Positions 8,865-51,223 of a DNA stretch of 64,000 nt are shown one piece after another (position 1 is the first letter of the stretch; each line of letters opens with the position of its first letter). Below the pieces are notes generated by a model, which saw nothing but the letters and a program-made list of their open reading frames with translations, was not told the DNA's origin and ran no database searches. The translations under genes and the position numbers were made by a program. Origin of the DNA: an uncultured Candidatus Saccharibacteria bacterium (lineage in GTDB: Bacteria; Patescibacteriota; Minisyncoccia; Phycocordibacterales; PALSA-1337); NCBI GenBank assembly GCA_964470105.1, contig CAYXZI010000002.1:8644-72643 (forward strand), in the 5' to 3' direction.

Positions 8865-9635
8865 CTATAACTTAAACAGGGTTCTAGCGTTATTAAACAC
8901 ATGTTCTCTTACCATATCCATACTTTCCCCTCTAATTTCTGCTATTTTGTTTACTACTTCAATAACAAAAACTGGTTCATTTCTTTGTCCTCTATATGGT
9001 ACTGGTGCAACAAATGGTGCATCTGTCTCTGTCATAATCATGTTTAATGGAATATTCTTGATTACTTCGTCATAGTTCCTAGTAAAGGTTATTACTCCTG
9101 TAAAAGAAAGTTTAAATCCTAGTTTTATAAATTCATGTGCTTCCTCAGTATTACCGGCATAAAAATGTACATCACCATGAACTTTCGCATGTTTCTTTAG
9201 GATATCTAATGCATCAGCATATGCGCTTTCCCCTTTCATTCCATTCCTTAAATGCAACATTAGAGGCTTCTTTACTTCATTAGCTATTGCAATATGTTTT
9301 TCAAAAATATCTTGTTGGCGAGCTTTATCTGTAATTGGTCTGTGGTAGTAATCAAAACCAGTCTCACCAATACCTACGACTTTTGAATGCAAAGCTAGTT
9401 GTTTATAGAAATCAATATCAAATACTTCATTTGGATCATCTGCTGGATGGAGTCCTATAACTGCCCAGACATTATCATTTGTCTCAGCAATCTTTACTGC
9501 TTTTTCTGAACTTTCCTTATTCACTCCCACAACAATCATACCCACTTCCTTTTCTTGAGCACGCTTAATAGCTTCATCTATATCTAGATTAAAATCATTT
9601 AGATTTAGATGACAATGAATATCGATGTATTTCAT
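8865..9635 (-). CDS. TatD-family metal-dependent DNase/hydrolase
   Basis: MKYIDIHCHLN and TatD motifs. The track ORF reaches 9746, but the likely start is the ATG at 9633-9635, which overlaps the metG stop in a TAATG arrangement. Confidence 0.8.
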   Translation of the reverse strand: MKYIDIHCHLNLNDFNLDIDEAIKRAQEKEVGMIVVGVNKESSEKAVKIAETNDNVWAVIGLHPADDPNEVFDIDFYKQLALHSKVVGIGETGFDYYHRPITDKARQQDIFEKHIAIANEVKKPLMLHLRNGMKGESAYADALDILKKHAKVHGDVHFYAGNTEEAHEFIKLGFKLSFTGVITFTRNYDEVIKNIPLNMIMTETDAPFVAPVPYRGQRNEPVFVIEVVNKIAEIRGESMDMVREHVFNNARTLFKL

Positions 9636-11071
9636 TACTTCCTCATAAACAAAGGCTTCTCTGGCATTTTTCCTGACTTTATTCCCTGTTGTATCAATCT
9701 TGATGTCTCGGGCAATATCGGCTCTAAAGCGACAGCTATATGCCATATAGAAGCAAGACAGAATGAGATCTGTTGCTTACCTTTCACCTCATCAACCTTT
9801 ATTGTCTTGAATGGCTGGTTTTCCTGTATGTACCTATCTACTTCTTGAATCTTATTCCAAATATCATCACATACTTTATTTATCTCAAATGAATCGTAAT
9901 AATCATTATGCTTTTTTATATCAAGTGTCTGAGCAGACTTCTGATCTAGATCTACACCATTAGTCTCTGCCATCTTCATTACCCTACTCACCAGATTTCC
10001 AAGACCATTAGCAAGATGTGCATTATATGCATCCTTGAATCTCTCCATAGTAAAAGGACTGTCTTCGAAAGGCTGTACTTCTCGAAGAAGGAAATATCGC
10101 AAAGCATCAGTACCGTATTCGTTTACGACATCTAGTGGGTTTACAGTATTACCTAATGACTTACTCATCTTTATCCCTCCCTCTGCCGTTATGAAGCCGT
10201 TGACGACGATTTGGCGAGTATTAGGTAGTCCAGCTGCTATTAACATAGCTTGCCACATTGCACTCTGCTGACGGAGATTATCTTTACCACAGTATTGAAC
10301 TACGTTGTCTGCCCTAGTCCACCATTCATCAAAAGATTCTATATTCTCTGGCCATCCAATAGTTGAGATGTAATTTACCAATGCATCAAACCAAACATAC
10401 ATAACATGTTCATTATCATCAGGCACATCTACACCCCAAGGCATCTTACTTTTTAGACGAGATATACTGAAATCCTGTAATCCTCTCTCAACAAAGGCTT
10501 TTATTTCATTGAATCTAAAATCTGGCACAACTAGATATGGATTCTTTTTATATAGCTCAAGTAGTGGCTTTTGGAATTCAGAGAATTTGAAGAAATAGTT
10601 TTCTTCCTCTATCAAAAGAATATCCAGATTTTGGTGAATTATACATTTACCATTCTCAAGCTCAGTGTCTGTCTTCTCCAATTCGCAACCGGTACAGTAT
10701 TTAGTTTTATATAGCTTTTTATATATATAACCATTGTCCTTACATCTCTTCCAGAACTCTTGTGCTGCCTTTATATGATGTTTATCTGTAGTCCTTATGA
10801 AATGTATATCTGATATACCCAATATACCTTTTAATTCTTTGAACTTCTCTGCATAATGATCAACAAATGCTTGAGTCGATTCTCCCTGACTTAATGCTTT
10901 CTCATATATCTTTAGTCCATGCTCGTCAGTTCCAGTATTAAAGAATACGTCAAAGCCCTGTAGTCTTTTGGCACGAGCGATAGCATCAGCACGTATGATT
11001 TCCATAGCGAAGCCGACATGTGGATCTGAGTTTACATATGGGAGAGTTGTGGTTATGTAGTATTTTTTCAT
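9635..11071 (-). CDS. metG: Methionyl-tRNA synthetase, short form lacking the C-terminal tRNA-binding domain
   Basis: Class I HIGH-type motif PYVNSDPHVGFAM and KMSKSLGNTV. 478 aa. Confidence 0.93.
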   Translation of the reverse strand: MKKYYITTTLPYVNSDPHVGFAMEIIRADAIARAKRLQGFDVFFNTGTDEHGLKIYEKALSQGESTQAFVDHYAEKFKELKGILGISDIHFIRTTDKHHIKAAQEFWKRCKDNGYIYKKLYKTKYCTGCELEKTDTELENGKCIIHQNLDILLIEEENYFFKFSEFQKPLLELYKKNPYLVVPDFRFNEIKAFVERGLQDFSISRLKSKMPWGVDVPDDNEHVMYVWFDALVNYISTIGWPENIESFDEWWTRADNVVQYCGKDNLRQQSAMWQAMLIAAGLPNTRQIVVNGFITAEGGIKMSKSLGNTVNPLDVVNEYGTDALRYFLLREVQPFEDSPFTMERFKDAYNAHLANGLGNLVSRVMKMAETNGVDLDQKSAQTLDIKKHNDYYDSFEINKVCDDIWNKIQEVDRYIQENQPFKTIKVDEVKGKQQISFCLASIWHIAVALEPILPETSRLIQQGIKSGKMPEKPLFMRK

Positions 11072-12339
11072 TTTAATGTAAGGAGTTTTTGGAATCGCTC
11101 ACTATCCTTGTATGGACCAATTATAGCTAGATTTAGCTTTTCTTCAACAAAGATGAGCTTGGCAACCTCTTTTATATCTTCTACAGTTACCTTTCTAATC
11201 TTATCTATTTCTTCTTGTGGAAGCTCTATTTTACCCTTCAGTATCTGATTAATAGCTGAATATTCTGCCCTAGAATCAGAAGTCTCAAGACCAAGTACGA
11301 ATGAACCAGAGATATAGTCTTTAACCTTATTTAACTCCTCCTCTGTTATCTCTTCAGTTATTATCTTTTTACATTCATGAAGTAGTGTCTTTATAACTTC
11401 ATCTATTCTACTAGTATCTATTCCAGTTGATATGGTGAATAGACCATGATCAGTATATGTATCATGATTGGCACGTATATAATATCCAACCCCCATTTCT
11501 TCACGAAGTTTCTGGAAGAGCCTAGAACTCATACCTCCGCCTAATAATGTTGAGAGTACCGATAGACTAGCATCATATTTACTATTAGCATCAAATGATC
11601 TGAAACCTAGTACTAGATGTGCTTGATCTGTCTCTTTGAATTTCAATAGTATTTCTGGCTTTTTCTGTTCTTCTTTTACTTTTACCTTTTTGTGTTTACT
11701 TGATGTTCGAATCTTGGAGAAAGCCTTCTCAATTTTCTTTATTATATCTGCCTCATTAAATGATCCGGATACTACAACAGTAGTTGCTTCAGCAACATAA
11801 TGTTCACTTATATACTTTGCAAAGTCCTCTCTCTTAAAACTCCTTACCGTATCTTCTGTACCAGCTATATTCCATCCTGCAGGTTGATCACCATATACAA
11901 GACTCATAAAAACATCATGTACATGTCTATGTGGTAGATCTTGATACATTCTTATCTCTTCTACTATAACCCCTTTCTCCTTTTCTATTTCCTTCTCATT
12001 TAAAAGTGGGTTGAGATATACATCAGATACTACATCTAGCGCATTATCTACTTTCTCTTTACTTACTTTCGCATAGTATCCTGTATATTCTTGCCCTGTG
12101 AATGCATTGTATTGAGCACCAAGAGAATCTAGTTCTCTAGATATATCCATAGCAGTAGGACGTTTAGATGTACCTTTAAACATCATATGTTCAAGGAAAT
12201 GTGACAGCCCATTTATCTCCTTTGTTTCATACTTTGAACCAGTTTCTACCATAACTAAAACAGTTACGGCAGGATTGTCTTCCATTGGAATTGTTATGAT
12301 TTTAAGACCATTAGCTAGAGTGGTTTTATTGAATTTCAT
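11068..12339 (-). CDS. M16-family (pitrilysin/insulinase-like) zinc peptidase
   Basis: Inverted zinc motif HFLEHMMFKGT (HxxEH). Confidence 0.85.
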   Translation of the reverse strand: MKFNKTTLANGLKIITIPMEDNPAVTVLVMVETGSKYETKEINGLSHFLEHMMFKGTSKRPTAMDISRELDSLGAQYNAFTGQEYTGYYAKVSKEKVDNALDVVSDVYLNPLLNEKEIEKEKGVIVEEIRMYQDLPHRHVHDVFMSLVYGDQPAGWNIAGTEDTVRSFKREDFAKYISEHYVAEATTVVVSGSFNEADIIKKIEKAFSKIRTSSKHKKVKVKEEQKKPEILLKFKETDQAHLVLGFRSFDANSKYDASLSVLSTLLGGGMSSRLFQKLREEMGVGYYIRANHDTYTDHGLFTISTGIDTSRIDEVIKTLLHECKKIITEEITEEELNKVKDYISGSFVLGLETSDSRAEYSAINQILKGKIELPQEEIDKIRKVTVEDIKEVAKLIFVEEKLNLAIIGPYKDSERFQKLLTLK

Positions 12340-12356
12340 ATTTAATTATACAGACA

Positions 12357-13667
12357 TTATTTAATATCTAGATACTTTGTCAACTCCTCTATCTTTACCC
12401 TCTCCTGCTTTCCTGTATCTCTATTTCTCACAGTTACTCCAGCATCTTTTTCTATAGTATCAAAATCTATTGTCACACAATATGGTGTACCTATTTCATC
12501 CTGTCGGCGATATCTTTTTCCTATATTTCCATTGTCATCAAATACCACACCTGAAATATTCTTCTTTAACATCTTATAAACTTCTTGAGCCTTCTCAACC
12601 AAGACTGGTTTGTTCTTCAATAGTGGAAAAACAGCAACCTTCACTGGTGCCACCTTAGGTGAGAACTTCATATATACTCTCTTCTCTCCATCAATTTCAT
12701 CTTCTGTATATGCATCTGAAAGTACAGCAAGTACTGTTCTCTCAACTCCAAACGATGGTTCTATGCAGTGAGGAATATATCTCTCCTTTGTTTCTTCATC
12801 GTAGTATGACAAATCAACTTTGCTTGCTTCTGCATGAGCTTTCAAATCAAAATCAGTTCTGTATGCAAGACCATATAATTCCTTTTTACCAAATGGGAAA
12901 TCAAATTCAAAATCAATTGTTCGCTTTGAATAGTGGGCACGGTCACCGTCTGGTATCTCGAGCTCATGTACATGGCTCTTATCTAATCCGATATCATTTG
13001 TGAATGCATGAATTTCTTTTACAAAACTTTCAAAAGTCTGCTTCCATTCTGTTGGTTTTACGAAATATTCTATTTCCATTTGCTCAAATTCGCGAGAACG
13101 GAATACAAAATCACGTGGAGCAATTTCATTTCTAAATGCTTTACCTATCTGAGCAAGACCAAATGGTAGTGTAGGGTGGATACTGTCTAGTACATTTTTG
13201 AAGTTTACAAACATTCCTTGTGCTGTTTCAGGTCGAAGATATGTGATGGATTCATCACTCTCTATTGGACCAGCATTAGTCTTAAACATCATATTAAATT
13301 GTCTTGCTTCACCTAGTTCCCCACCACAATCTGGACATTTCTTTGGATTTTCTAGTTGATCAGTACGGAAACGATGCTTACACTTTTTACATTCAGATAA
13401 CGGATCAGAGAAACCGGCAACATGTCCGCTCGCCTTCCAGACATTCTGATTCATAAGTATTGCAGCATCTACTCCATACATATCGTCGCGATCTTCAACA
13501 AAACGCTTCCACCACAACTGCTTGATATTATTCTTCAATTGCAAACCATAGTGAGCAAAATCCCATGTACCAGCCAATCCTCCGTAAATCTCTGAACCTT
13601 GAAAAACAAATCCTCTTCTTTTACAGAGTGATATAATTTTTTCCATCTTTGTTTCTTCTTTTGCCAT
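12357..13667 (-). CDS. glyQS: Glycyl-tRNA synthetase, alpha2 class II type
   Basis: The N-terminus RRGFVFQGSEIYGGLAGTWDFAHYG and a class II core are typical of GlyRS (glyS). Confidence 0.9.
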   Translation of the reverse strand: MAKEETKMEKIISLCKRRGFVFQGSEIYGGLAGTWDFAHYGLQLKNNIKQLWWKRFVEDRDDMYGVDAAILMNQNVWKASGHVAGFSDPLSECKKCKHRFRTDQLENPKKCPDCGGELGEARQFNMMFKTNAGPIESDESITYLRPETAQGMFVNFKNVLDSIHPTLPFGLAQIGKAFRNEIAPRDFVFRSREFEQMEIEYFVKPTEWKQTFESFVKEIHAFTNDIGLDKSHVHELEIPDGDRAHYSKRTIDFEFDFPFGKKELYGLAYRTDFDLKAHAEASKVDLSYYDEETKERYIPHCIEPSFGVERTVLAVLSDAYTEDEIDGEKRVYMKFSPKVAPVKVAVFPLLKNKPVLVEKAQEVYKMLKKNISGVVFDDNGNIGKRYRRQDEIGTPYCVTIDFDTIEKDAGVTVRNRDTGKQERVKIEELTKYLDIK

Positions 13668-13671
13668 ATAT

Positions 13672-15612
13672 TTATTGTCCTACTTTATCATCTCCATCCT
13701 TATATTGAGGATCAGTACTAAATCTTGTTGTTAGTGTCCCTAGATTACTCTTTAATTCTTCACCTGTAAAGTCATCGATTGCAGTAATTACAGACTGATC
13801 TAGTATTGCTGGACTATCATTTACCTGATTTATACTTGGTGTTAAAGATACTTGGAATGCTACCTGCCTTCTCTTTGAGCTACCTGCTGTATATGTTGAG
13901 AGGCTACCGACATTCCATACTATCTGACCATGAACACTGTCGTAACTTACATCCTCACCTGCAGGACTAATCTTCCCTAACCATTTTACATATGGTGGTA
14001 ATCCAGACTGAACAACTACATTACTTACAGCATTTGCTCCATTATCAACAGTCCACAATATTGTATATGTTGTTTGTTGCTCAGACTTTGGAGGTATTGG
14101 GCCTGTATTTGTAAATGGTCCTGTTGACCTCAGTACCTGACCTCCTAATGCAATATTAGAAGATATTCTGACTTCTTTCTGTACAGTCGAAGCTATGCTT
14201 TCTGGGACATTACCCTCTGAATTTCTTTTACCCTTTATACTTATATCGAATTTTAAATTTGGATTTGTTATTGCTTTTATAGTTGTACTCTGATCACGTG
14301 GAGTTATTGTAAAACTTACCTTACCACTTCCACCAGCCTCAATACTATTCAAATCATTTGTAGTGATGCTATTCCACACAATTTCATTATCAGCAGACTT
14401 ATATAGCCCATCATCAGGAGAAACTGATGACTTATCAAGCGCTGTACCAGAGAGCTTTACATGCACCTCAGCATCGATAATTGAGGTTGGTAGATTATTG
14501 TAATATGAAATATCTACTTTTACAGGATTATTAAATGAAGCAATATATCCTTGATCACTGGAATCACCATTCAGTGCAACATCAACAGACATAAACGGTT
14601 TCCTTATAGATATCTCTTGTGTGCCAGTTATATATTCTGTACCTATGAGTTTATCGTTACCCAGCCTACCAGCACCTGCTGTAAATCTGAATACTCTTTT
14701 TTCATCATCTTGTCCTTCAAGCTTTCCCTTTATCTTTACAACCTTCTTACCACCAGGTGGCATATCACCAATCTTCCAAACGGAATTATCAGTAGTAATT
14801 GGTTTCATATCTGAAGATATATATGTGAATCCAAAAGGATATACGGCTTTTAGCACAAGATTCTTAATTACCTCTTTTGAATTTGAATTCATGGTTACCA
14901 ACATCTCAAACTCCTGACCTGAATTTACTTCTTTAAAAGATGATGCTGTTAGAGTTAATGGTGATGAAGAGATGAGAACATCAAATGTCTTTTCTTTAAC
15001 AGAAACAGCATTTGATCCTTGTACTCTGTACTCCACAGTGACCTTTATTTCCCTCTTACTATTCTCCTCACCATACAATATGGCTTTAATTGTCTTTTGC
15101 CCTACCCCACCAGGAACAATATCTGGTATTAGTTCTCTGGTATTTTTTAACTCTCTAAGACCATCACTCGGGTCTGTGGTACCTACTGGAAAGTCCACTG
15201 ACATATCTACTGTCTGAAGTTTAATATTATTATGATTTTTAACTTGTACCTCAAAGGATACAGGTTCTCCACCTGCCACAGAAATTGGACCATTGATAGT
15301 TATATCAACATTGTTAGTAGAAACTATATTTGATCCGTTAAATACTAGGTATGCACCAATACCTAAGGCTACGAGAAAGAAGATGAATGAGGTGAATAGT
15401 ATTTTTGTAAAGAATGACATAGATCTATCTTTAAATTTAGTATTTAATTTAACTTCAGGTTCTGGACTTTCTGACTCATGCTCCCAATCTGTATTAACAT
15501 CTGCTTCTTGTCCATGGAAACGTAACCTTCTTTTTGTTTTTATATCTGGAGCATTTCTAGAATATAGGGTGTTATTGAGCTCTTCGATCTTATTTTGATC
15601 CTCTCCGTTCAT
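13672..15612 (-). CDS. Large membrane-anchored extracytoplasmic protein with repeated Ig/CARDB-like beta domains
   Basis: 646 aa. Short cytoplasmic N-terminus, one transmembrane helix (FFTKILFTSFIFFLVALGIGAYLVF), then repetitive beta-rich domains. No catalytic motif. Confidence 0.4.
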   Translation of the reverse strand: MNGEDQNKIEELNNTLYSRNAPDIKTKRRLRFHGQEADVNTDWEHESESPEPEVKLNTKFKDRSMSFFTKILFTSFIFFLVALGIGAYLVFNGSNIVSTNNVDITINGPISVAGGEPVSFEVQVKNHNNIKLQTVDMSVDFPVGTTDPSDGLRELKNTRELIPDIVPGGVGQKTIKAILYGEENSKREIKVTVEYRVQGSNAVSVKEKTFDVLISSSPLTLTASSFKEVNSGQEFEMLVTMNSNSKEVIKNLVLKAVYPFGFTYISSDMKPITTDNSVWKIGDMPPGGKKVVKIKGKLEGQDDEKRVFRFTAGAGRLGNDKLIGTEYITGTQEISIRKPFMSVDVALNGDSSDQGYIASFNNPVKVDISYYNNLPTSIIDAEVHVKLSGTALDKSSVSPDDGLYKSADNEIVWNSITTNDLNSIEAGGSGKVSFTITPRDQSTTIKAITNPNLKFDISIKGKRNSEGNVPESIASTVQKEVRISSNIALGGQVLRSTGPFTNTGPIPPKSEQQTTYTILWTVDNGANAVSNVVVQSGLPPYVKWLGKISPAGEDVSYDSVHGQIVWNVGSLSTYTAGSSKRRQVAFQVSLTPSINQVNDSPAILDQSVITAIDDFTGEELKSNLGTLTTRFSTDPQYKDGDDKVGQ

Positions 15613-15634
15613 ACGTGTAATTATATCATATATA

Positions 15635-16189
15635 CTACAACTGACTCTCTTTAAGGGCTGAGTTTACAATATTTAATACTTTAGACTTAATACCAGCAAA
15701 ACTAGCTAATGTTTCCAATGTGAGAGAGTTATCTTTTAGATACGTATCTATTTCAGTATTTCCTTTAATATATCCCAATGAATCCAGTATTCTTAGTATA
15801 GTTATACACTCAACAAGACCATAGTCTTTCTCTTCTATATTTGATTGATACATTGATTCTATAATTTCAAACAATCTTTCATTCTTGTCTTCACCTTGTA
15901 AAAGACGTTTAAGTAATTTAAGGATCTTGAGGTGTAATATCGTCCCTCCATGATTTTCAATCTCATGCGCTCCAGTTAATCTCCAAACCTCCTTTCCTCT
16001 TACAATTGACACATTAGAGAAACTTGAATCTTGGATATGATATCTTAACTTTGATTGATTAAGACGTATCCCTTGCGCAACCACCCCTATCATACCGAAA
16101 TCACGGGTGAATAGCAGAAGAAATTTGCCAGCCTCGCCATGTGGACTACTATGTACTACGAAAGCAGGAGTGGTGTAGATATGGTGCAT
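15635..16189 (-). CDS. recO: RecO-like DNA repair protein, short
   Basis: An N-terminal OB-fold pattern AFVVHSSPHGEAGKFLLLFTRDFGMIGVVAQGIRLNQSKLR resembles RecO. 184 aa, shorter than the canonical length. Confidence 0.5.
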   Translation of the reverse strand: MHHIYTTPAFVVHSSPHGEAGKFLLLFTRDFGMIGVVAQGIRLNQSKLRYHIQDSSFSNVSIVRGKEVWRLTGAHEIENHGGTILHLKILKLLKRLLQGEDKNERLFEIIESMYQSNIEEKDYGLVECITILRILDSLGYIKGNTEIDTYLKDNSLTLETLASFAGIKSKVLNIVNSALKESQL

Positions 16190-16191
16190 TA

Positions 16192-19100
16192 CTACTTTTC
16201 TATATCAAGTTTAATACTGTACTCGGCTATATTTATAGCTATATTTCCTAATTCTTTGAAAATTATACCTTTTAGAAGAGTTGAGCTAACTATCAAATCT
16301 TTATTCTTCTCAACTAGACTGGAGAAGTTTTTATCTGAATCAATAACCAGAGTTACCCTATCGTTTATCGTCAGTCCCTTTTCTTTTCTTAATTCCTGAA
16401 TTGATCGTATTAATTCTCGTACAATACCCTCCTCTTTTAATTCTGGAGTTATATTCGTATCAAGCATAACTTCACTACCCAATGTCTCATCATGTACCAC
16501 CTCTTTTACATTTACTTCATCTTTAATGATATCTACTAGTGATACAGGAAATTTTTCTTTTACATAGAGCTTTGAAAGAGGTTGGCGTACTATTATTTTT
16601 GCTTTTGTACGTGCTTCCAGAGCCAGTGAAGCTATCTGTCTTATCTGTGTCATATTCTTCAATATCCTTCCATCAACTTTTGATGATCTTGGCCACGCTT
16701 CTAGATGCACACTCTCAAGTGGTCCTTTTAATCTCTGATATATATCTTCTGCTATAAATGGCATGAAGGGAGCTAGAAGTTTTGTGAAATCTATTAATAC
16801 ATTTCTTGTAGTTGAAAGTACAGCCGCCCTATCTGATTCACTCTTGAAACGATCTCGTGATCTACGTATATACCAGGTTGATAGGTCATCGATAAAATCA
16901 GCTATTGGTCTAGTTGCTTTATCGATCTGAAACTTATCCAAAGATTCGGTAATTTCTTTTATTAATTCCTTTAATCTGGTATTAATCCATATATCTAGAT
17001 GATTCTCACTCTTAATATTAGGTATATTGTCTTTTGCATACATCTCATAGAATGAGACTACATTATTTAATCTACCTATATGTTTTTTAACCACCTCATC
17101 TACTGCTCTTTCAGAAAAAGCGAGATCTTGTGAGTGTACAACAGGTGAAGACATCAAAACATAACGTAGGGCATCAGCACCATATTTATCAACAACAATC
17201 ATTAGATCAGGATAGTTTTTTAATCTCTTTGACATCTTCTGTCCATCCTCTGCTAATACTGTTCCATTAACTACAACATTCTTATATGGTGATTTACCAA
17301 ACAAAGCTACGCCAAGAACAAGCATGGAATAGAACCAGCCACGAGTTTGATCTAGTCCTTCTGCGATAAAATCTGCCGGATATCCCTTTGTTCTTCCTAG
17401 GATCTTACTAAATGGTCCTGGTTTTGGATTAAAGTCACATTTATTAAAAGGATAGTGAGATTCACCAAAAGGCATAGCTCCGGATTCGAACCAGCAATCA
17501 AATACTTCGGGTATTCTCTTCATCTTATTACCCTTTTCTGAAACTAGCTCTATATCATCAATGAATGATCGATGTAGATCTAATTCATATTCCACGTTGT
17601 GTGGTAGAGGGTGGAAATCTAGTTTGCGTGGTTTGCCATTTTTATTAAAATGATCTGCATTACCACGAGCTTCTATTGCTTCTTTTCTATTCCATCCTTG
17701 AGTAACTGCATCAAGTAGAAATAGCGGTGTATCATGAGAGATGATTAGAATATTCTTACCAGAATATTTATGATCAATATCGTAGATGAAATCCCCCATT
17801 CTCTTCTTAATATCAACATAGTTCTCTCCTCCTTCAGGTCTCTTCTCGAAACGGTCTGCGTGAGCAAAGTTTTTTACATAGTCATTAAAGCTTTTATTGT
17901 TCCAGACACCTGCATTTATCTCATGAATCCTTTCATCAACAATTATTTTACTCTTATCAAGTCTTACTCTTGATGCGATTATCTCTGCTGTTTCTTTGGT
18001 TCTAACAAATGGTGAAGTGATTATCAAATCAATCTTTTTATCAAAAAGCCACTTACCTGCTTCTTCTGCCTGTTTCTTTCCATTTTCTGTTAAGTGATGT
18101 TGATTACTTGCAATTGAACTTACAATCATCTTTACATTATTCTCCGCCTCTCCATGTCTACAAACGTAGTATGTGTTATTAGCTTTACTGTATTTTTTTA
18201 AATCCTCTACTGAACCCAATACATGACACTCATCTGTATTCTCCTCTCTCCAAACTGGTAATGGTGCACCCCAGAAACGTGATCGTGATATTGCCCAATC
18301 ACGAGCTCCCGCCAACCAATTACCGAATCTTCCTTCTCCAACTTCCTCCGGTACCCATTTAACTTTACTATTCTCCTTTACTAGCTTATCTCTGAGTGAA
18401 GTTACTTTTACAAACCATGATGAAGAGGCGTAGTTGAGAAGTGGTGTATCACAACGCCAACAATGTGGATATGAATGTATTATTTTTTCTTTTGCAAAAA
18501 GAGTTCCTTTACCAGCTAGATATTTTATTACTTCTATATCTGATCTTTGATGTGCATCTTTATCTTCAGCCGTATCTTTTGGTTTTACGGCCTGTCCAGC
18601 AAAGTCAGTGACTTCTGGTTTAAACTTTCCGTTTGTATTTACGTGTTGGACGAAAGGTAGATTGTGCTTTAGAGATAGATCATAGTCATCAGAACCGAAA
18701 GCTGGAGCAATATGTACGATACCTGTTCCACTATCGTTAGTTACAAAATCTGCACCATACACCTTCCATCCATTTTCTCTATTCTTTAGCTTTTTATCAT
18801 TTATATAATAATTAAAAACAGGTTCATATGAAAGACCAATTAATTTACTTCCTTCTATTTCTTCTATAACCTTATACTCTGATTTTATAGTTGATAGTCT
18901 TGATTGAGCTAGAATGACTTTAGTATTCTCAACTTCTATCTTTACATATTTAAATGTTGGGTTTATAGCTAGAGCAACATTTCCTGGTAAAGTCCATGGC
19001 GTTGTAGTCCAAGCTAAAAAGAATGTATCTGGACTATCTTTTAATTTAAATTTAGCATAAACAGATATATCTGTAATATCTTTATATCCCTGACTCACTT

Positions 19101-19686
19101 CAAAGTTAGAAAGTGTTGTCTCACAACGAGGACAGAGATTCATTGATTTAAATCCTTCATATATAAGACCTTTTTTATGGAGCTCAGAAAATGCCCACCA
19201 TACTGACTCAGTATATGATGCATCCATTGTTCTATAGTCATCATCCATATCCACCCACCTTCCTAGTCTAGGTATTATCCTTCTCCAATCATGCGCATAA
19301 CGCATAACACTAGCTTGTGCAGCAGCATTAAACTTACCGATACCGTAGTCAGTAATATCTTTCTTTGAGGTTAGTTTTAACTCTTTTTCTATTAGATTCT
19401 CTACAGGCAAACCATGACAGTCCCAACCCCATCTTCTTCTTACCTTATACCCCCTCATTGTCTTATATCGAGGTATTACGTCCTTTACAGTTCCTGGAAC
19501 TACGTGACCATAATGTGGCTCACCTGTAGCAAAAGGAGGTCCATCGTAGAATACATAATCACCCTTTGGTGAAGGTTTCTCTAGAGTTTTCTTGAAAATA
19601 CCCTTCTTTTCCCAGAATTCTAGTATTTTCTCCTCTGTTTCTACGGTTTTACCTTTAGTTGGTTTTTCTATGTTTTCTGCTGACAT
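16192..19686 (-). CDS. ileS: Isoleucyl-tRNA synthetase, type 2 (eukaryote-like), carrying an inserted histidine-phosphatase domain
   Basis: YDGPPFATGEPHYGH...WGWDCHGLPVE and KMSKRLKNYPD are type-2 IleRS signatures, and a CP1 editing region is present. It is 1164 aa, and residues about 506-702 form a PGM/histidine-phosphatase-like insert (see findings). Confidence 0.95.
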   Translation of the reverse strand: MSAENIEKPTKGKTVETEEKILEFWEKKGIFKKTLEKPSPKGDYVFYDGPPFATGEPHYGHVVPGTVKDVIPRYKTMRGYKVRRRWGWDCHGLPVENLIEKELKLTSKKDITDYGIGKFNAAAQASVMRYAHDWRRIIPRLGRWVDMDDDYRTMDASYTESVWWAFSELHKKGLIYEGFKSMNLCPRCETTLSNFEVSQGYKDITDISVYAKFKLKDSPDTFFLAWTTTPWTLPGNVALAINPTFKYVKIEVENTKVILAQSRLSTIKSEYKVIEEIEGSKLIGLSYEPVFNYYINDKKLKNRENGWKVYGADFVTNDSGTGIVHIAPAFGSDDYDLSLKHNLPFVQHVNTNGKFKPEVTDFAGQAVKPKDTAEDKDAHQRSDIEVIKYLAGKGTLFAKEKIIHSYPHCWRCDTPLLNYASSSWFVKVTSLRDKLVKENSKVKWVPEEVGEGRFGNWLAGARDWAISRSRFWGAPLPVWREENTDECHVLGSVEDLKKYSKANNTYYVCRHGEAENNVKMIVSSIASNQHHLTENGKKQAEEAGKWLFDKKIDLIITSPFVRTKETAEIIASRVRLDKSKIIVDERIHEINAGVWNNKSFNDYVKNFAHADRFEKRPEGGENYVDIKKRMGDFIYDIDHKYSGKNILIISHDTPLFLLDAVTQGWNRKEAIEARGNADHFNKNGKPRKLDFHPLPHNVEYELDLHRSFIDDIELVSEKGNKMKRIPEVFDCWFESGAMPFGESHYPFNKCDFNPKPGPFSKILGRTKGYPADFIAEGLDQTRGWFYSMLVLGVALFGKSPYKNVVVNGTVLAEDGQKMSKRLKNYPDLMIVVDKYGADALRYVLMSSPVVHSQDLAFSERAVDEVVKKHIGRLNNVVSFYEMYAKDNIPNIKSENHLDIWINTRLKELIKEITESLDKFQIDKATRPIADFIDDLSTWYIRRSRDRFKSESDRAAVLSTTRNVLIDFTKLLAPFMPFIAEDIYQRLKGPLESVHLEAWPRSSKVDGRILKNMTQIRQIASLALEARTKAKIIVRQPLSKLYVKEKFPVSLVDIIKDEVNVKEVVHDETLGSEVMLDTNITPELKEEGIVRELIRSIQELRKEKGLTINDRVTLVIDSDKNFSSLVEKNKDLIVSSTLLKGIIFKELGNIAINIAEYSIKLDIEK

Positions 19687-19915
19687 AGAGCTATTTTAGC
19701 ACTTTTTAGCAAAAAAACTATCTGAGAAGCTTATCAGTTTGTTGGCACTAACAAATTGATATCGCCACTAAAATAAATTGACCATTTTGTTAGTGCTAAA
19801 AATGGTTTTTATCTTTTTAATGGCTAATTTACATCAATTTGCCAGCATCGGAAAATTGATCCGCTATTTAAATACTGGTACGACTAACACAAAACTGCAA
19901 GTTTGTTTTATATCC

Positions 19916-21592
19916 TCACATCCTCTCTGGCACCTTAATTCCCAAAATCCATAACCCATTCTTCATGGTTTGCACAAAGACTTTTGTTATAAGCACCCTA
20001 TATGGTGAAAGTGCATCCTTCTCATCCAATATCTGATTATTCGCATAGTATGCATTGAAAGCTGAAGAAAGTTCTGTAAGGTATGTAACGATATAGTGTG
20101 GCGCATACTCTAGTCTTGCTCTTTCTATTATTTCTGGGAAACGTATAAGAGTTTTTTCGAAAGCACTAACGACATCTGGCAGTGTGTTAACTTCCTTATC
20201 ACTAGCCTTATTCACCACTGCCTGTGCTCTTACTGTTGCATATTGTAGATATGGACCTGAATCACCTTCGAATGATAGTGCTTTATTCGGATCATATATA
20301 ATATCTCCACCTATTGATTGGCGAAGTATTATGTATTTTAGTCCTGCTATTGCAATCTGATTATTTATTTCTCCTTTTTCCTTTGATGTAAAATCTCTAT
20401 CTTTAGTCTTATCCTCAACCAAAACCTCAAAGTCCTTTATCAATACTTCAGCCGGTACTACATTCCCTTTTCTTGATGACATCTTTCCTGAAGCTGGTCT
20501 TAAGAGACCATGACTCATGTGTTTTGTTTTCTCCCCTATATTTTTATCTATTTGTTTTAAAGCCTGTAGAACTACTCGAAAATATGCGTCCTGCTCATTT
20601 GCAGTTACGATAATCGACTCATTGAGCTTTGGATATATTTCAAATTTCTTTTTATTCAATCCCAATTCCTTCGCTTCATAAGTCGGTAATCCTTGTGAAT
20701 TGATAAATACTCGAGTATGCTCTCCATACTTCTCTCCAGGGAAAACTATAGCTCCTTCACTTTCTTCAAAGATTCCTTTCTTTAGAAATTCTTTAACAAT
20801 CCTTATACCGTCATCAGCAACTTCTGATTCAAAAAAGAAGTTATTAAATTTTGTTCCTAGCTTTTCATATACTCCATCAAAGTACTCTAGACTTAATTTT
20901 CTTCCTGCTTCATAGATTTTATTTATCTCTGGATCTGATTTTTCAAATATCTTTTTATTTATTTCTACTATCTCGACTTTTGCCTTTTCATCTTCATCAT
21001 ATTTACTTGAACCTAGTACGTACATCTCTCCCAGATATGTTATATCATCCTTATATTTACCATCTTTAACTATTGCCCAAATAGTCTTTGCTACATGCAA
21101 TCCAACATCTCCTTGATAACATGCACGAATGACTTTGGCACCAGATGCTTCCACAATTCTTGAAATTGATTCCCCTATAGTATTTGCCATTAGATGACCT
21201 ATGTGAAAAACCTTAAATGGATTTGGATCTGTGTACTCCACCATTATTTCCTTACCTTTATCCAAATCTATTTTCCCAAAGTTTTCTATATCTTTACTTA
21301 TCTTTAATATTTCATTTGTAAAATATGAATCTTTGATTTTAAAATTAATGAATCCGGGACCTGCGACTTCTATTGCCTTTATATTTTTCAAATCTCTTTC
21401 TTTGCAAAGTTCTACTATTTTCTCAGCCAAAGCTTTTGGATTCACCTTTAAGGTCTTTGCATAGACCATGGCGACGTTACAAGAGAAATCGCCATGATTC
21501 ATATCCTCAGGATGTACAAGCTCTATCTTAGCATCAGAAATACCGACTTTCTCAGTAGCTTCTATTAGTAATTTAGTTATTTCCTTAATCAT
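19916..21592 (-). CDS. argS: Arginyl-tRNA synthetase
   Basis: An N-terminal Arg_tRNA_synt_N domain, a HIGH region EYTDPNPFKVFHIGHL, and a DALR-type C-terminus. Confidence 0.93.
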   Translation of the reverse strand: MIKEITKLLIEATEKVGISDAKIELVHPEDMNHGDFSCNVAMVYAKTLKVNPKALAEKIVELCKERDLKNIKAIEVAGPGFINFKIKDSYFTNEILKISKDIENFGKIDLDKGKEIMVEYTDPNPFKVFHIGHLMANTIGESISRIVEASGAKVIRACYQGDVGLHVAKTIWAIVKDGKYKDDITYLGEMYVLGSSKYDEDEKAKVEIVEINKKIFEKSDPEINKIYEAGRKLSLEYFDGVYEKLGTKFNNFFFESEVADDGIRIVKEFLKKGIFEESEGAIVFPGEKYGEHTRVFINSQGLPTYEAKELGLNKKKFEIYPKLNESIIVTANEQDAYFRVVLQALKQIDKNIGEKTKHMSHGLLRPASGKMSSRKGNVVPAEVLIKDFEVLVEDKTKDRDFTSKEKGEINNQIAIAGLKYIILRQSIGGDIIYDPNKALSFEGDSGPYLQYATVRAQAVVNKASDKEVNTLPDVVSAFEKTLIRFPEIIERARLEYAPHYIVTYLTELSSAFNAYYANNQILDEKDALSPYRVLITKVFVQTMKNGLWILGIKVPERM

Positions 21593-50106: not shown

Positions 50107-51126
50107 ATGATTGAGCTGTCTAAATACAAAGATACAGATAGAGTTATTTTCCCCTTAAATAAACAGAGGGAGTTTTTTATAGATGTTAAAAATAGGACCG
50201 GGGTCAGTTGGGTAGATTTTTCCAAGATGTTGAATATACAACCACGGATACTTTTGAATTATAGAAATGAAAAATACTCTATAACATTTAAGATACTGAG
50301 AATGATCATTAACAATCTAAAAGTAAAATTACCGAAAGGAATACGCATTGAGGATCAATTTTGGCATAACAAAACCGCAGGAAAACTAGGTGGCGAAGCA
50401 GTTATGAGGAAATATGGAAAAGTTGGTGGTAGTGAAAAGTATAGAAAAGAACAGTGGAAAAAATGGTGGGAACTAAATGGTAAAAGGAATCCGAGTCTCA
50501 TAACTACAAGGAGGAAAGTGAAATTACCACCATATTCATCCTCTCTTGCAGAACTATTTGGGATCTTGATTGGAGATGGGGGTATCACTAAATACCAGAT
50601 GATAATTACATTGAATGGAGAGACGGATAAAGATTATTCTAAATTTATTATACTTTTATTAAAAAAGTTATTTAATGAGAATCCTAAAATATATAAAATT
50701 AAGGATACCAAAGCTATTAGTGTAGTTATTTCAAGAAGTAGCCTGGTAGATTTTTTAGTAAAAAATGGTTTAAAAATTGGCCACAAGATAAATCAGAATG
50801 TATCGATACCAGAATGGATCATGGAATCAAAAAAATATAGAATATCATGTCTACGTGGCCTAGTTGATACTGATGGGTGTGTAGTTCATGAGACACACAA
50901 TATTCGAAATAAAACATACATGTATCCTCGCCTAAATTTCACAAGCGCTTCACCTAATTTAGTTCAACAGGTTATCTCTATATTTTCAGATCTAGGCTTT
51001 AAAACAAAACTCCGAAGAGGTGGCAGATCAGTACAACTTGAAAATCTAAGAGAAATATGCCAATATTTCAACATTGTTGGTTCCAGCAATCCTAAGCACT
51101 TAAGAAGGATTGATAGATGGTACTAA
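50107..51126 (+). CDS. Free-standing double-motif LAGLIDADG homing endonuclease with an N-terminal extension of about 150 aa
   Basis: Two LAGLIDADG motifs: LAELFGILIGDGG and LRGLVDTDGCV. Confidence 0.72.
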   Translation: MIELSKYKDTDRVIFPLNKQREFFIDVKNRTGVSWVDFSKMLNIQPRILLNYRNEKYSITFKILRMIINNLKVKLPKGIRIEDQFWHNKTAGKLGGEAVMRKYGKVGGSEKYRKEQWKKWWELNGKRNPSLITTRRKVKLPPYSSSLAELFGILIGDGGITKYQMIITLNGETDKDYSKFIILLLKKLFNENPKIYKIKDTKAISVVISRSSLVDFLVKNGLKIGHKINQNVSIPEWIMESKKYRISCLRGLVDTDGCVVHETHNIRNKTYMYPRLNFTSASPNLVQQVISIFSDLGFKTKLRRGGRSVQLENLREICQYFNIVGSSNPKHLRRIDRWY

Positions 51127-51135
51127 TAGAATGAT

Positions 51136-51223
51136 GGAAGCGTGGCTCGAGTGGTTGAAGGCACCGCTCTTGAAAAGCGGAACCCGGGCAACTGGGTCGT
51201 GAGTTCGAATCTCACCGCTTCCG
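51136..51223 (+). tRNA. tRNA-Ser (anticodon UGA)
   Basis: Acceptor GGAAGCG/CGCUUCC. Anticodon stem-loop CCGCU-CUUGAAA-AGCGG. Long variable arm. T-loop UUCGAAU. Confidence 0.9.

What the first reader, a model, noticed from the sequence alone, without database searches (positions are those of the whole stretch)
17581..18171. Histidine-phosphatase (phosphoglycerate-mutase family) domain inserted inside isoleucyl-tRNA synthetase
The ileS product is a clear type-2 IleRS. Between the conserved block WAISRSRFWGAPLPVW...SVEDLKKY and the block LDLHRSFIDD...VFDCWFESG there are about 190 extra residues. The two flanking blocks sit roughly 30 aa apart in canonical type-2 IleRS. The insert reads YYVCRHGEAENN ... 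HHLTENGKKQAEEAG ... IITSPFVRTKETAEII ... RIHEINAGVWN ... PEGGENYVD ... LIISHDTPL. This matches the histidine-phosphatase clade 1 signature block by block: catalytic RHG, the second Arg, the SHxxxl His, and block-wise alignment with GpmB/PhoE/CobC. The reading frame is continuous, so it is a genuine in-frame domain insertion in an essential enzyme and not a neighbouring gene. I am not aware of a catalytically equipped phosphatase domain embedded in the catalytic core of an aminoacyl-tRNA synthetase. Possible roles include dephosphorylating a nucleotide or tRNA-end substrate, proofreading, or regulation.
Basis: partly seen in the sequence, partly recalled or inferred. Interest (0 to 1): 0.8.

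Follow-up and report, generated by a model that had tools for sequence, protein, structure and literature searches.

The report
Phosphatase enzyme nested inside isoleucyl-tRNA synthetase
An essential protein-synthesis enzyme (isoleucyl-tRNA synthetase) of a Patescibacteria bacterium carries a complete histidine phosphatase with all its catalytic residues in a surface loop of its catalytic half; the arrangement is real, is kept in at least 80 species, comes from a gene that otherwise lies just upstream of ileS, and I found no paper that describes or explains it.

Summary
The ORF at 16192-19686 (-) encodes a 1164-aa type-2 IleRS (TIGR00392, 874 bits). Residues 501-694 (nt 17605-18186) are a complete His_Phos_1 domain (Pfam E=5e-30). 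It lies exactly between residues 478 and 479 of Priestia IleRS2, inside subdomain CP3.

It is not an assembly artefact. All 80 species-representative genomes retrieved encode one continuous ORF with the same insert. The catalytic Arg, His, Asn, Arg, Glu and His are invariant in 63 homologues. dN/dS is 0.042 for the insert and 0.034 for the rest of the gene.

New findings:
- In sister lineages the same phosphatase is a free-standing ~188-aa gene in a tight argS-hisP-ileS-recO operon.
- The free and nested forms interconverted at least twice at the same site.
- Other IleRS carry two to four such domains at other loops, and every full-length copy has the full catalytic set.

The recurrent association suggests a phosphatase that works with IleRS, but no substrate can be named. 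A metabolic phosphatase or mutase that is merely tethered to IleRS remains a strong rival. No paper describing the architecture was found. I rate it a new variant of known kinds, interest about 0.7.

The parts
16192..19686 (-). ileS: 1164-aa type-2 isoleucyl-tRNA synthetase with a nested phosphatase domain
   Evidence: ORF. TIGR00392 873.9 bits against a cut-off of 621.4. Pfam tRNA-synt_1, Anticodon_1, DUF5915 and His_Phos_1. Foldseek best matches are PmIleRS2 8c8v/8c9d, E about 1e-77.
18187..19686 (-). IleRS residues 1-500: first Rossmann half (HYGH, residues 58-61), CP core, CP1 editing domain, CP2, the WAISRSRFWG linker and the N-terminal half of CP3 (beta hairpin plus helix VEDLKKY)
   Evidence: Aligns to 8c8v residues 9-478. 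Secondary structure from the AF2 model. Domain names follow ScIleRS and CaIleRS.
17605..18186 (-). Nested His_Phos_1 domain, residues 501-694; it corresponds to residues 2-186 of the free-standing homologue, so essentially a whole gene product
   Evidence: Pfam PF00300 E=5.2e-30. 49% identity to the free-standing P0050 from its residue 2. AF2 model of the domain alone has pLDDT 93.6 and pTM 0.91. Foldseek TM 0.75-0.82 to PspA, CobC, PhoE, GpgP and a mycobacterial hydrolase.
18151..18159 (-). RHG motif (R510, H511 as the presumed nucleophile, G512)
   Evidence: Translation check. Invariant in 63 fused homologues and in 55 sequences dominated by free-standing homologues.
18001..18003 (-). R562, the second phosphate-binding Arg (SPFVRT motif)
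17920..17922 (-). E589, the presumed proton donor (HEINAG motif)
17734..17736 (-). H651, the second catalytic His (IISHDTP motif)
17506..17604 (-). Conserved C-terminal linker (PHNVEYE) and the C-terminal half of CP3 (LDLHRSFIDD...KRIPE)
   Evidence: Mean column identity is 0.81 for residues 688-703, against 0.65 for the insert as a whole. F691 and P695 are invariant; H696, N697, Y700 and E701 are at least 90% conserved.
16192..17505 (-). IleRS residues 728-1164: second Rossmann half (VFDCWFESG, KMSKR at 817-821), stem-contact fold, anticodon-binding domain and type-2 C-terminal domain
   Evidence: Aligns to 8c8v residues 479-1009. Pfam Anticodon_1 and DUF5915.
19687..19915 (-). argS-ileS spacer: the position where sister lineages carry the free-standing phosphatase gene; it is empty here
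   Evidence: 229 nt, stop codons in all three frames, no remnant of a gene. The free-standing gene occupies this position in L081, L085, L093, L096, L101 and L104-L107.
19916..21592 (-). argS, the upstream member of the conserved argS-(hisP)-ileS-recO cluster
   Evidence: Pfam Arg_tRNA_synt_N, tRNA-synt_1d and DALR_1.
15635..16189 (-). recO, the downstream member of the conserved cluster
   Evidence: Pfam RecO_N. Same gene order in L081 and L104-L107.

Best explanation
What it is (shown, about 0.97). A complete branch-1 histidine phosphatase with all its catalytic residues is nested in the loop between the two helices of CP3 of a type-2 IleRS. The organism belongs to Patescibacteria (Paceibacteria; its closest relatives are labelled Taylorbacteria).

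Where it came from (shown to the level of neighbour-joining trees). In sister lineages the same phosphatase is a separate ~188-aa cistron packed between argS and ileS, often overlapping the ileS start codon. The whole coding sequence, from residue 2 to the last residue, now sits inside ileS and the upstream copy is gone.

How it most likely works (inferred, about 0.45). The phosphatase is a dedicated partner of IleRS and not a passenger. It is made in fixed proportion with IleRS, either by translational coupling or by nesting. It is held by short conserved linkers on the rim of the second Rossmann half. There it hydrolyses a phosphomonoester on something that IleRS binds or produces.

My ranking of candidate substrates, none of them tested:
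(i) a small phosphorylated metabolite or nucleotide whose removal or sensing tunes aminoacylation;
(ii) a phosphate- or pyrophosphate-blocked tRNA acceptor end;
(iii) phospho-IleRS itself.

The IleRS synthetic and editing sites look intact, so the protein should still be a working synthetase.
For: Identity: Pfam and NCBIfam hits, a clean insertion point, and confident models (insert blocks pLDDT 88-96 in the full-length model; domain alone 93.6) with a His_Phos fold.

Selection: R510, H511, N517, R562, E589 and H651 are invariant in 63 fused homologues of 61-86% identity. dN/dS against L001 is 0.042 for the insert and 0.034 for the rest of the gene.

Breadth: all of the 120 best full-length hits carry PF00300. 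All 80 GTDB species representatives have one continuous ORF.

Linkage:
- 7 of 8 free-standing relatives that I looked up lie immediately upstream of an insert-less ileS, and so do 7 of 10 in metagenome loci. Overlaps or gaps range from -7 to +24 nt.
- This holds in front of two divergent IleRS lineages, with motifs DCWFESG and GNPWLDAG.
- No fused locus has a second free copy.

Recurrence:
- The nested domains of L097 and L099 group with the free L091 gene in 96.5% of 200 NJ bootstraps. They share 60% identity with it and at most 45% with the main nested clade.
- Their IleRS cores are also nearest neighbours. This implies at least two transitions at the same site.
- Other IleRS (P0442, P0489, P0450, P0415, P0389, P0478) carry 2-4 His_Phos_1 domains at three or four different loops. 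Every full-length copy has the full catalytic set.
- One of these proteins is found on contigs up to 1.06 Mb in a different genomic context.

The linker at residues 688-703 is more conserved than the domain itself.
Against: - No substrate, interaction or geometry was tested.
- CP3 is variable among IleRS and the structural papers I read do not report it contacting tRNA or ligands. It may simply be a permissive loop.
- The nearest structural and sequence neighbours are ordinary ~200-aa small-molecule phosphatases.
- Conserved gene order in compact genomes is weak evidence of shared function, and adjacency itself raises the chance of local rearrangement into ileS.
- Some free-standing copies are not next to ileS. 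P0090 lies beside a glycerate-kinase-like gene. In L092 a methylase and an AbiU2 gene follow.
- The trees are neighbour-joining only, on about 190 columns.
Confidence: 0.45

Rival explanations
1. Passenger model. The domain is an autonomous housekeeping enzyme: a PhoE/GpmB-like phosphatase, or the phosphoglycerate mutase reported as missing in some Parcubacteria. It was first a neighbour of ileS. Local rearrangement then placed it in a permissive surface loop. It is retained because it is the only copy, and it plays no part in aminoacylation.
For: - The nested segment equals the whole free-standing protein and needs no IleRS-specific features.
- The best structural matches are small-molecule phosphatases and a monomeric PGM of about 200 aa.
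- The best NCBIfam hit is the archaeal dPGM model.
- One free copy lies next to a DUF4147/MOFRL glycerate-kinase-like gene and POR genes.
- CP3 is a variable subdomain with no reported ligand contact.
- Insert composition equals that of the host gene.
Against: - It does not explain why the same domain family is found again and again in IleRS. The observations are at least two transitions at CP3, two to four copies at other loops in other lineages, and adjacency kept in front of two divergent IleRS types.
- Residues that define classical dPGM are absent by my reading of the sequence: EINAG in place of ERHYG, and SHDTP in place of HGNSLR.
- All specific NCBIfam models score far below their cut-offs.
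- The linker is conserved more strongly than the domain.
Confidence: 0.35
2. Regulatory or protective module. The domain acts on IleRS itself, either as a cis protein phosphatase that removes inhibitory phosphorylation (of the kind HipA-type kinases put on other synthetases) or as a phosphometabolite sensor whose occupancy modulates aminoacylation.
For: - Stoichiometric co-expression or covalent tethering fits an intramolecular role.
- The attachment points (site A in CP3, site B after WFESG, site C after the KMSKS segment) all flank the second Rossmann half, which carries KMSKS.
- The superfamily includes protein phosphatases such as SixA, PGAM5 and Sts. This is my own knowledge; the SixA model hits at E=1.5e-11 but below its cut-off.
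Against: - No kinase partner, phosphosite or defence association was found. PADLOC gave no hit.
- The structural neighbours are small-molecule enzymes, not SixA or PGAM5.
- A pure sensor would not need an invariant nucleophile and proton donor.
Confidence: 0.12
3. Catalytically silent structural or tRNA-binding appendage: a former enzyme reused as a scaffold.
For: Class I synthetases often gain lineage-specific idiosyncratic insertions. The pocket binds phosphate and could in principle hold a tRNA phosphate.
Against: All six catalytic residues are invariant in 63 fused homologues and are kept in every full-length copy of the multi-domain variants. Purifying selection on the insert equals that on the synthetase. 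Pseudo-enzymes normally lose the nucleophile or the general acid.
Confidence: 0.05
4. Artefact: an assembly chimera, a frameshift merger of two genes, or a pseudogene.
For: None found. Many database entries are fragments of 200-570 aa, which at first sight could suggest broken genes.
Against: - The identical 1164-aa protein occurs on 3 contigs, the longest 95 kb.
- 80 of 80 species representatives, from independent studies and assemblers, have one continuous ORF with the same junctions.
- Composition shows no break (GC 0.349 against 0.357).
- dN/dS is 0.04.
- The fragments lie mostly on contigs of 1-2 kb, although several are short gene calls on long contigs.
Confidence: 0.01

Closest known systems
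Type-2 (eukaryote-like, mupirocin-resistant type) isoleucyl-tRNA synthetase, e.g. Priestia megaterium IleRS2 (PDB 8C8V) and yeast IleRS (8WND)
   Same: Same domain order, HIGH and KMSKS motifs, CP1 editing domain and type-2 C-terminal domains. Foldseek E about 1e-77 and TM 0.78 normalised to the target. phmmer E=4e-223. Passes the ileS equivalog model.
   Different: It has 194 extra residues between PmIleRS2 residues 478 and 479, inside CP3. The CP3 zinc knuckle (CxxC...CxC), which is present in relatives such as L042, L072 and L097, is lost in the window protein.
Small branch-1 histidine phosphatases: PhoE (1H2E/1EBB), PspA phosphoserine phosphatase (4IJ5), CobC alpha-ribazole phosphatase (6NRU, 6E4B), GpgP Rv2419c (4QIH)
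   Same: Same fold (TM 0.75-0.82, rmsd 2.3-3.5 A). Same catalytic Arg-His-Asn...Arg...Glu...His set. Same size, about 190-210 aa.
   Different: Only 20-28% identity. Every specific NCBIfam model scores far below its cut-off, so the substrate cannot be transferred. Those enzymes are free-standing proteins, whereas this one is nested in another enzyme.
Free-standing CPR phosphatase 'hisP' (my working name), e.g. P0050, P0282, P0299, P0329; annotated by sources as 'histidine phosphatase family protein' or 'PhoE'
   Same: 37-49% identical over the whole length and collinear from residue 2 to the C-terminus. Same catalytic set. Same genomic neighbourhood: argS on one side, ileS and recO on the other.
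   Different: It is a separate cistron upstream of an insert-less ileS of 931-1018 aa. It carries a near-invariant WPE motif after the RHGE...N loop, which the main nested clade has replaced.
Bifunctional RNase H / CobC-like acid phosphatase (M. tuberculosis Rv2228c type, NCBIfam NF005567)
   Same: A His_Phos_1 domain fused to a nucleic-acid enzyme, with no explanation for the coupling. It is the second-best NCBIfam hit for the insert (E=2.5e-22).
   Different: That is an end-to-end fusion, not a nested domain. The score is 79.7 bits against a cut-off of 326, so this protein is not a member.
IleRS with an embedded N-acetyltransferase domain (NCBIfam NF040702, ileS_w_GNAT)
   Same: Another curated case of an extra catalytic domain carried by IleRS. 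In P0477 a GNAT domain sits at site B of an IleRS that also has His_Phos_1 at site A.
   Different: The guest fold and chemistry differ. The window protein scores 317 bits against a cut-off of 1999 and has no GNAT domain.
CP1 editing domain of class Ia synthetases; PFK-2/FBPase-2
   Same: CP1 is the classical precedent for a hydrolytic domain nested in the Rossmann fold of IleRS. PFK-2/FBPase-2 is the classical precedent for a His_Phos_1 domain fused to a partner enzyme that acts on the same metabolite (own knowledge; FBPase-2 hits).
   Different: CP1 is universal in IleRS and hydrolyses aminoacyl esters. FBPase-2 is a C-terminal fusion with a known shared substrate. Here the shared substrate, if there is one, is unknown.

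Membership tests
Isoleucyl-tRNA synthetase, type 2 | Passes the curated ileS equivalog model | tested here: met
   TIGR00392 873.9 bits against a cut-off of 621.4.
Isoleucyl-tRNA synthetase, type 2 | Class I signature motifs HIGH and KMSKS present | tested here: met
   HYGH at residues 58-61 and KMSKR at 817-821; invariant H58, G60, H61, K817 and K820.
Isoleucyl-tRNA synthetase, type 2 | CP1 editing domain and type-2 C-terminal domain (DUF5915), with an overall fold like solved IleRS2 | tested here: met
   Pfam DUF5915 E=2e-21. The invariant block W226-N236 (WTTTPWTLPGN) and the conserved G320-G331 block (GTGIVHIAPAFG; 10 of 12 positions invariant, T321 and I326 at least 90%) are present. Foldseek top hits are PmIleRS2 and ScIleRS.
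Isoleucyl-tRNA synthetase, type 2 | Charges tRNA-Ile with isoleucine | not testable with these tools
   Needs an enzyme assay.
Histidine phosphatase superfamily, branch 1 (PF00300) | Passes the Pfam gathering threshold | tested here: met
   105 bits against 21.7, E=5.2e-30, residues 507-659.
Histidine phosphatase superfamily, branch 1 (PF00300) | Catalytic core: RHG nucleophile His, two Arg, second His, acidic proton donor | tested here: met
   R510, H511, N517, R562, E589 and H651 are present and invariant in 63 homologues. They align with the catalytic residues of PhoE and PspA.
Histidine phosphatase superfamily, branch 1 (PF00300) | The alpha/beta fold of the superfamily | tested here: met
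   Domain model with pLDDT 93.6. TM 0.75-0.82 to PspA, CobC, PhoE and GpgP.
Histidine phosphatase superfamily, branch 1 (PF00300) | Phosphatase or mutase activity through a phospho-His intermediate | not testable with these tools
   Needs a biochemical assay.
2,3-BPG-dependent phosphoglycerate mutase (GpmA / archaeal dPGM) | Passes the curated models | tested here: not met
   TIGR01258 17.9 bits against 81.7; NF038349 dPGM_arch 93.7 against 225.
2,3-BPG-dependent phosphoglycerate mutase (GpmA / archaeal dPGM) | dPGM-specific substrate residues (ERHYG, WRR, HGNSLR blocks of E. coli GpmA; recalled from memory) | tested here: inconclusive
   The sequence reads HEINAG, DRF and SHDTPL at the corresponding places. 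I made this comparison by eye from memory of GpmA, not against a curated alignment.
CobC alpha-ribazole phosphatase | Passes TIGR03162 or PRK15004 | tested here: not met
   78.7 bits against 162.9; 63.1 against 250.
PspA-type phosphoserine phosphatase | Passes NF045917 | tested here: not met
   62.8 bits against 350.
SixA phosphohistidine phosphatase | Passes TIGR00249 | tested here: not met
   44.3 bits against 74.5. SixA-type structures are not among the top structural matches.
GpmB / PhoE broad-specificity phosphatase | Passes PRK03482 (GpmB) | tested here: not met
   54.2 bits against 261. PhoE 1H2E is the best PDB sequence hit, but only at E=3e-12 and 28% identity.
IleRS with GNAT domain (NF040702) | Passes the model and has a GNAT domain | tested here: not met
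   316.7 bits against 1999; no acetyltransferase Pfam hit.

The most novel reading that the evidence does not exclude
The nested phosphatase is a previously unknown second hydrolytic activity of IleRS, alongside CP1 editing. It would act in cis on the aminoacylation machinery, for example by removing a blocking 2'/3'-phosphate or pyrophosphate from the tRNA acceptor end, or an inhibitory phosphate from the synthetase itself. In that reading it is a built-in repair or antidote function, and its value explains why histidine-phosphatase domains were captured by IleRS repeatedly, at up to four different loops and in up to four copies.
Probability: 0.2. Interest if true: 0.9.

Novelty: new variant of a known kind. 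Interest (0 to 1): 0.72.

Why it matters
Aminoacyl-tRNA synthetases are among the most studied enzymes. Apart from the editing domains, extra catalytic domains nested in their catalytic half are very rare, and I found no description of a phosphatase among them. The architecture defines the IleRS of a large part of the Paceibacteria: at least 80 species representatives, and all of the 120 best database hits.

Three observations point to an unrecognised functional link between phosphate-ester hydrolysis and isoleucine charging. It has a two-gene operon counterpart in sister lineages. The free and nested forms appear to have interconverted more than once at the same site. In other bacteria it is elaborated to two to four copies.

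If the link is real, it adds a new accessory activity to a core translation enzyme of organisms with minimal genomes. If it is not, the case still matters in two ways. It shows a whole upstream gene being relocated into an essential enzyme. It also offers a possible explanation for phosphoglycerate mutase being reported as missing in metabolic reconstructions of Parcubacteria, because a domain hidden inside ileS is easily overlooked. In both cases the protein is easy to express and assay.

Tried and rejected
- Assembly chimera or frameshift: rejected.
- Merger with a neighbouring gene: rejected. IleRS sequence continues on both sides of the insert and aligns to consecutive PDB residues.
- Remnant of the free-standing gene in the argS-ileS spacer: none found.
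- Second His_Phos gene in the window: none.
- Assignment to dPGM, CobC, PspA, SixA or GpmB: all below the curated cut-offs.
- Defence-system link: no PADLOC hit.
- RNA elements: Rfam finds only seven tRNAs in the window. The promoter and terminator scans give nothing above expectation.
- Literature: six full-text searches combining IleRS or aaRS with histidine phosphatase, PGM, CPR, Patescibacteria, fusion or GNAT found no description. A 2026 preprint that annotated domain architectures of 96,219 IleRS mentions neither phosphatase nor Patescibacteria.
- The Biopython bootstrap timed out. I replaced it with a numpy neighbour-joining bootstrap.
- My automatic site classifier mislabelled many site-A proteins through an off-by-one at the junction. 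I used only the multi-site cases that I had verified by hand.
- Taxonomic identity of the multi-domain IleRS hosts: not resolved.
- Glycolytic genes in the window, to test the hidden-PGM idea: none among the ORFs scanned. 64 kb is too little sequence to judge.
Full report
**1. Observation**

The window carries one ORF at 16192-19686 on the minus strand.

- Pfam finds tRNA-synt_1 (E=2e-134), Anticodon_1 and DUF5915. It also finds His_Phos_1 at residues 507-659, with E=5.2e-30 and 105 bits against a gathering score of 21.7.
- NCBIfam's ileS equivalog is passed: 873.9 bits against a cut-off of 621.4.
- Against solved structures the best match is Priestia megaterium IleRS2. The alignment breaks cleanly: query residue 500 pairs with chain residue 478, and query residue 695 with chain residue 479.
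- The extra segment is therefore residues 501-694, nt 17605-18186. It adds 194 residues and replaces none.
- HYGH (residues 58-61) and KMSKR (817-821) are present. The conserved editing-domain blocks are present too.

**2. Not an artefact**

- The identical protein is on record from three contigs, the longest 95 kb.
- All of the 120 best full-length database hits (57-100% identity, 917-1281 aa) carry PF00300 as well.
- A scan of one genome per species returned the maximum of 80 loci. The record titles include Taylorbacteria, Lloydbacteria, Nomurabacteria, Paceibacterota and Parcubacteria. Many are generic 'uncultured Saccharibacteria' labels from bulk MAG projects.
- In all 80 loci I found IleRS N-part, insert and C-part in one continuous reading frame.
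- GC and GC3 of the insert equal those of the rest of the gene (0.349/0.263 against 0.357/0.238).
- Against the closest relative (L001), dN/dS is 0.042 for the insert and 0.034 for the rest of the gene.

**3. Anatomy**

The insertion point lies about 28 residues after the WAISRSRFWG segment. In yeast IleRS that segment is the CP2-CP3 linker and lines the tRNA/reveromycin pocket. CP3 is ScIleRS residues 459-526.

CP3 of the Candida enzyme has beta-beta-alpha-alpha topology and sits opposite CP2. It is structurally variable among IleRS, with a zinc knuckle in Thermus only.

In the AF2 model of the window protein (mean pLDDT 82, pTM 0.67) the order of elements is:
- a hairpin (strands 478-481 and 487-489);
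- a helix at 493-499;
- the phosphatase domain, whose ten-residue blocks have pLDDT 88-96;
- a helix at 706-709.

The guest domain therefore sits between the two CP3 helices. Relatives keep CxxC...CxC around the insert, but the window protein has lost these cysteines.

Modelled alone, the domain gives pLDDT 93.6 and pTM 0.91. It superposes on PspA, CobC, PhoE, GpgP and a mycobacterial hydrolase at TM 0.75-0.82.

R510, H511, G512, N517, R562, E589 and H651 are invariant in 63 fused homologues. The linker after the domain (F691, P695, H696, N697, Y700, E701) is more conserved than the domain itself: 0.81 against 0.65 mean column identity.

No specific phosphatase or mutase model is passed. dPGM_arch scores 93.7 against 225, CobC 78.7 against 162.9, PspA 62.8 against 350, GpmB 54.2 against 261 and SixA 44.3 against 74.5. 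This is a distinct subfamily with unknown substrate.

**4. Origin**

The closest non-IleRS relatives are free-standing proteins of about 180-210 aa from Patescibacteria. They are 37-49% identical to the insert and collinear from their residue 2 to their C-terminus.

Seven of the eight I looked up lie directly upstream of an insert-less ileS of 931-993 aa. The order is argS - phosphatase - ileS - recO - DUF11/CLIPPER protein, which is the order in the window minus the phosphatase gene. Overlaps or gaps to ileS range from -7 to +24 nt.

In a metagenome scan, seven of ten free-standing copies were immediately upstream of ileS. The exceptions:
- L098 has an inverted ileS downstream.
- In L092 an EcoRI-type methylase and an AbiU2 gene follow the phosphatase gene.
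- L094 has no ileS in the 1.7 kb that remain downstream.
- P0090 lies after metK, beside a DUF4147/MOFRL gene.

The free gene precedes two divergent IleRS lineages, with motifs DCWFESG and GNPWLDAG. They are about 40% identical and both pass TIGR00392.

In the nested lineages:
- argS lies within 600 nt upstream in 41 loci, and further upstream in about 13 more.
- recO follows in 45 loci.
- None has a second free copy.
- The window's 229-nt argS-ileS spacer holds no remnant.

**5. Recurrence**

In a neighbour-joining tree of the phosphatase domains, the nested domains of L097 and L099 group with the free gene of L091. This split appears in 96.5% of 200 bootstraps. They share 60% identity with L091 and at most 45% with the main nested clade. 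The free copies plus L097, L099 and L076 separate from the main nested clade in 80% of bootstraps.

The insert-less IleRS of L091 is also closest to L100 (insert-less, 71%) and next to L097/L099 (60%). It is about 49% identical to the main clade.

The IleRS-core tree places the insert-less L081 and L098 inside the nested group.

The simplest reading is at least two, and perhaps three, independent changes between 'upstream gene' and 'nested in CP3', always at the same site. The caveats are neighbour-joining only, short alignments, and the possibility of gene conversion or allele transfer.

**6. Wider pattern**

An exhaustive search of 1.84 billion cluster representatives with the insert gave 33 hits at E<=1e-30 and 1141 at E<=1e-10. 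The best 150 are a mixture of free-standing proteins and IleRS. Six IleRS among them have more than one His_Phos_1 domain:

| Protein | Length | Position of the His_Phos_1 domains |
|---|---|---|
| P0442 | 1419 aa | site B (after WFESG, window residues ~742-769) and site C (between the KMSKS/stem-contact segment and the anticodon domain, ~884-893) |
| P0489 | 1379 aa | sites B and C |
| P0450 | 1419 aa | site A (CP3) and site C |
| P0415 | 1087 aa, truncated | sites A, B and C |
| P0389 | 1161 aa, truncated | four copies, one of them before the WxISR segment |
| P0478 | 1056 aa, truncated | two copies in tandem |

Every full-length copy keeps Arg, His, Arg, Glu and His. All but one also keep the Asn (Ala in one P0389 copy). 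Two copies cut off by the end of their contig could not be fully scored. The copies are only 19-48% identical to one another, apart from one 71% value that rests on a 35-residue fragment.

P0442 has six cluster members of identical length, on contigs up to 1.06 Mb. Its neighbourhood (purA, DAHP synthase, SufBD, an SLH protein; 48.5% GC) is unlike the CPR cluster. So the association of His_Phos_1 with IleRS is not confined to one lineage or one loop.

**7. Interpretation**

Shown:
- a real IleRS with an intact catalytic set and a nested His_Phos_1 domain under strong purifying selection;
- a two-gene counterpart in sister lineages;
- recurrence.

Inferred (about 0.45): the phosphatase is a functional partner of IleRS, not a passenger. 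The grounds are translational coupling or nesting, retention in front of two IleRS types, repeated capture at several loops, and conserved linkers.

The substrate is unknown. The nearest folds are small-molecule phosphatases. For that reason I rank a small phosphorylated ligand above a blocked tRNA end or phospho-IleRS. None of these was testable here, because coordinates of the model were not available for geometric analysis.

The main rival (about 0.35) is an autonomous metabolic phosphatase or mutase that is merely tethered to IleRS. In its favour:
- one free copy sits beside a glycerate-kinase-like gene;
- CP3 is a variable loop with no reported ligand contact.

Lesser rivals are a regulatory or self-protective module (about 0.12), a silent structural appendage (about 0.05) and an artefact (about 0.01).

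**8. Comparison with what is known, and novelty**

The host is a member of type-2 IleRS and the guest is a member of PF00300. Membership of dPGM, CobC, PspA, SixA and GpmB was tested and not met.

Known analogies:
- the CP1 editing domain, a nested hydrolase in the same enzyme;
- PFK-2/FBPase-2 and the Rv2228c RNase H/acid phosphatase, which are His_Phos_1 fusions;
- NCBI's curated 'IleRS with GNAT domain' family.

Six full-text searches found no paper that describes a histidine phosphatase in or next to IleRS. A 2026 preprint on the domain architectures of 96,219 IleRS mentions neither phosphatase nor Patescibacteria. The sequences themselves are public, usually labelled 'class I tRNA ligase family protein' or 'histidine phosphatase family protein, partial'.

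Verdict: a real and widespread domain architecture that I found described nowhere. It is a new variant of known kinds. The function is unresolved but directly testable. Interest is about 0.7.

Noticed in passing
P0442, P0489, P0450, P0415, P0389, P0478 (representative proteins); loci L108-L110: IleRS variants carry two to four His_Phos_1 domains at different loops: CP3, after WFESG, after the KMSKS/stem-contact segment, and one before WxISR. Every full-length copy keeps the catalytic set. P0442 occurs on contigs up to 1.06 Mb, in a neighbourhood that is not CPR-like and has 48.5% GC.
   Followed up: partly
P0477 (1066 aa, JGI, 11-kb contig): This IleRS has a REP-associated tyrosine transposase-like domain (NF047646, 81.3 bits against a cut-off of 80) inside the editing domain, His_Phos_1 in CP3, and a GNAT acetyltransferase at site B, where the ORF ends. 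It may be a decaying or split ileS paralogue, or a further nested architecture.
   Followed up: no
L082, L083, L095, L096, L101 compared with L081, L098: The free-standing phosphatase gene precedes two divergent IleRS lineages (motif DVGNPWLDAG against DVLDCWFESG, about 40% identity). Either ileS was replaced in situ while the upstream gene stayed, or the adjacency arose twice.
   Followed up: partly
L088-L090 (P0090): One free-standing relative is not near ileS. It follows metK and lies two genes before a DUF4147/MOFRL (glycerate-kinase-like) gene, near pyruvate:ferredoxin oxidoreductase genes. This hints at a phosphoglycerate-related role.
   Followed up: no
L092 4621-6326: Where ileS does not follow the phosphatase gene, an EcoRI-type adenine methylase and an AbiU2 (HEPN) gene sit there instead. 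It looks like a defence island inserted into the cluster.
   Followed up: no
window 18187-18267 and 17506-17604: The window IleRS has lost the CP3 zinc knuckle. It reads EENTDECH...VSEKGNK where relatives read CxxC...CxCG on either side of the insert.
   Followed up: partly
window 9635-21592: Four aminoacyl-tRNA synthetase genes lie within 12 kb on one strand: metG at 9635-11071, a class II synthetase at 12357-13667, then ileS and argS. An M16 peptidase, a DUF11 surface protein and recO are interleaved among them.
   Followed up: no
window 37863-39485 (-): A 540-aa protein fuses BacA (undecaprenyl-diphosphate phosphatase, residues 6-255) to a C-terminal Peptidase_M23 domain (437-530). This is an unusual pairing of two cell-wall enzymes.
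   Followed up: no
window 50107-51126 (+) and tRNA at 51136-51223 (+): A 339-aa ORF with a LAGLIDADG_3 domain ends 10 nt before an 88-nt tRNA gene.
   Followed up: no
P0250, P0276 (189-aa free-standing phosphatases): JGI names these small phosphatases 'isoleucyl-tRNA synthetase', presumably through best-hit transfer from the nested proteins. This is an annotation error that the fusion propagates.
   Followed up: no
alignment A2; window residues 523-531: Free-standing copies and the L097/L099 nested copies keep a near-invariant WPE(K) motif after the RHGE...N loop. The main nested clade, which includes the window, has SS...N(P/Q)HH there. This may reflect a shift in specificity or an interface.
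   Followed up: no
L001 compared with window 19687-19915: The closest relative (95% identical in the region compared) has about 900 nt between argS and the ileS reading frame, where the window has 229 nt.
   Followed up: no
P0082 (480 aa, 1440-bp contig, labelled Rectinemataceae): A fragment of the nested IleRS is attributed to a spirochaete MAG. On so short a contig this is probably a binning error and not evidence of wider distribution.
   Followed up: no
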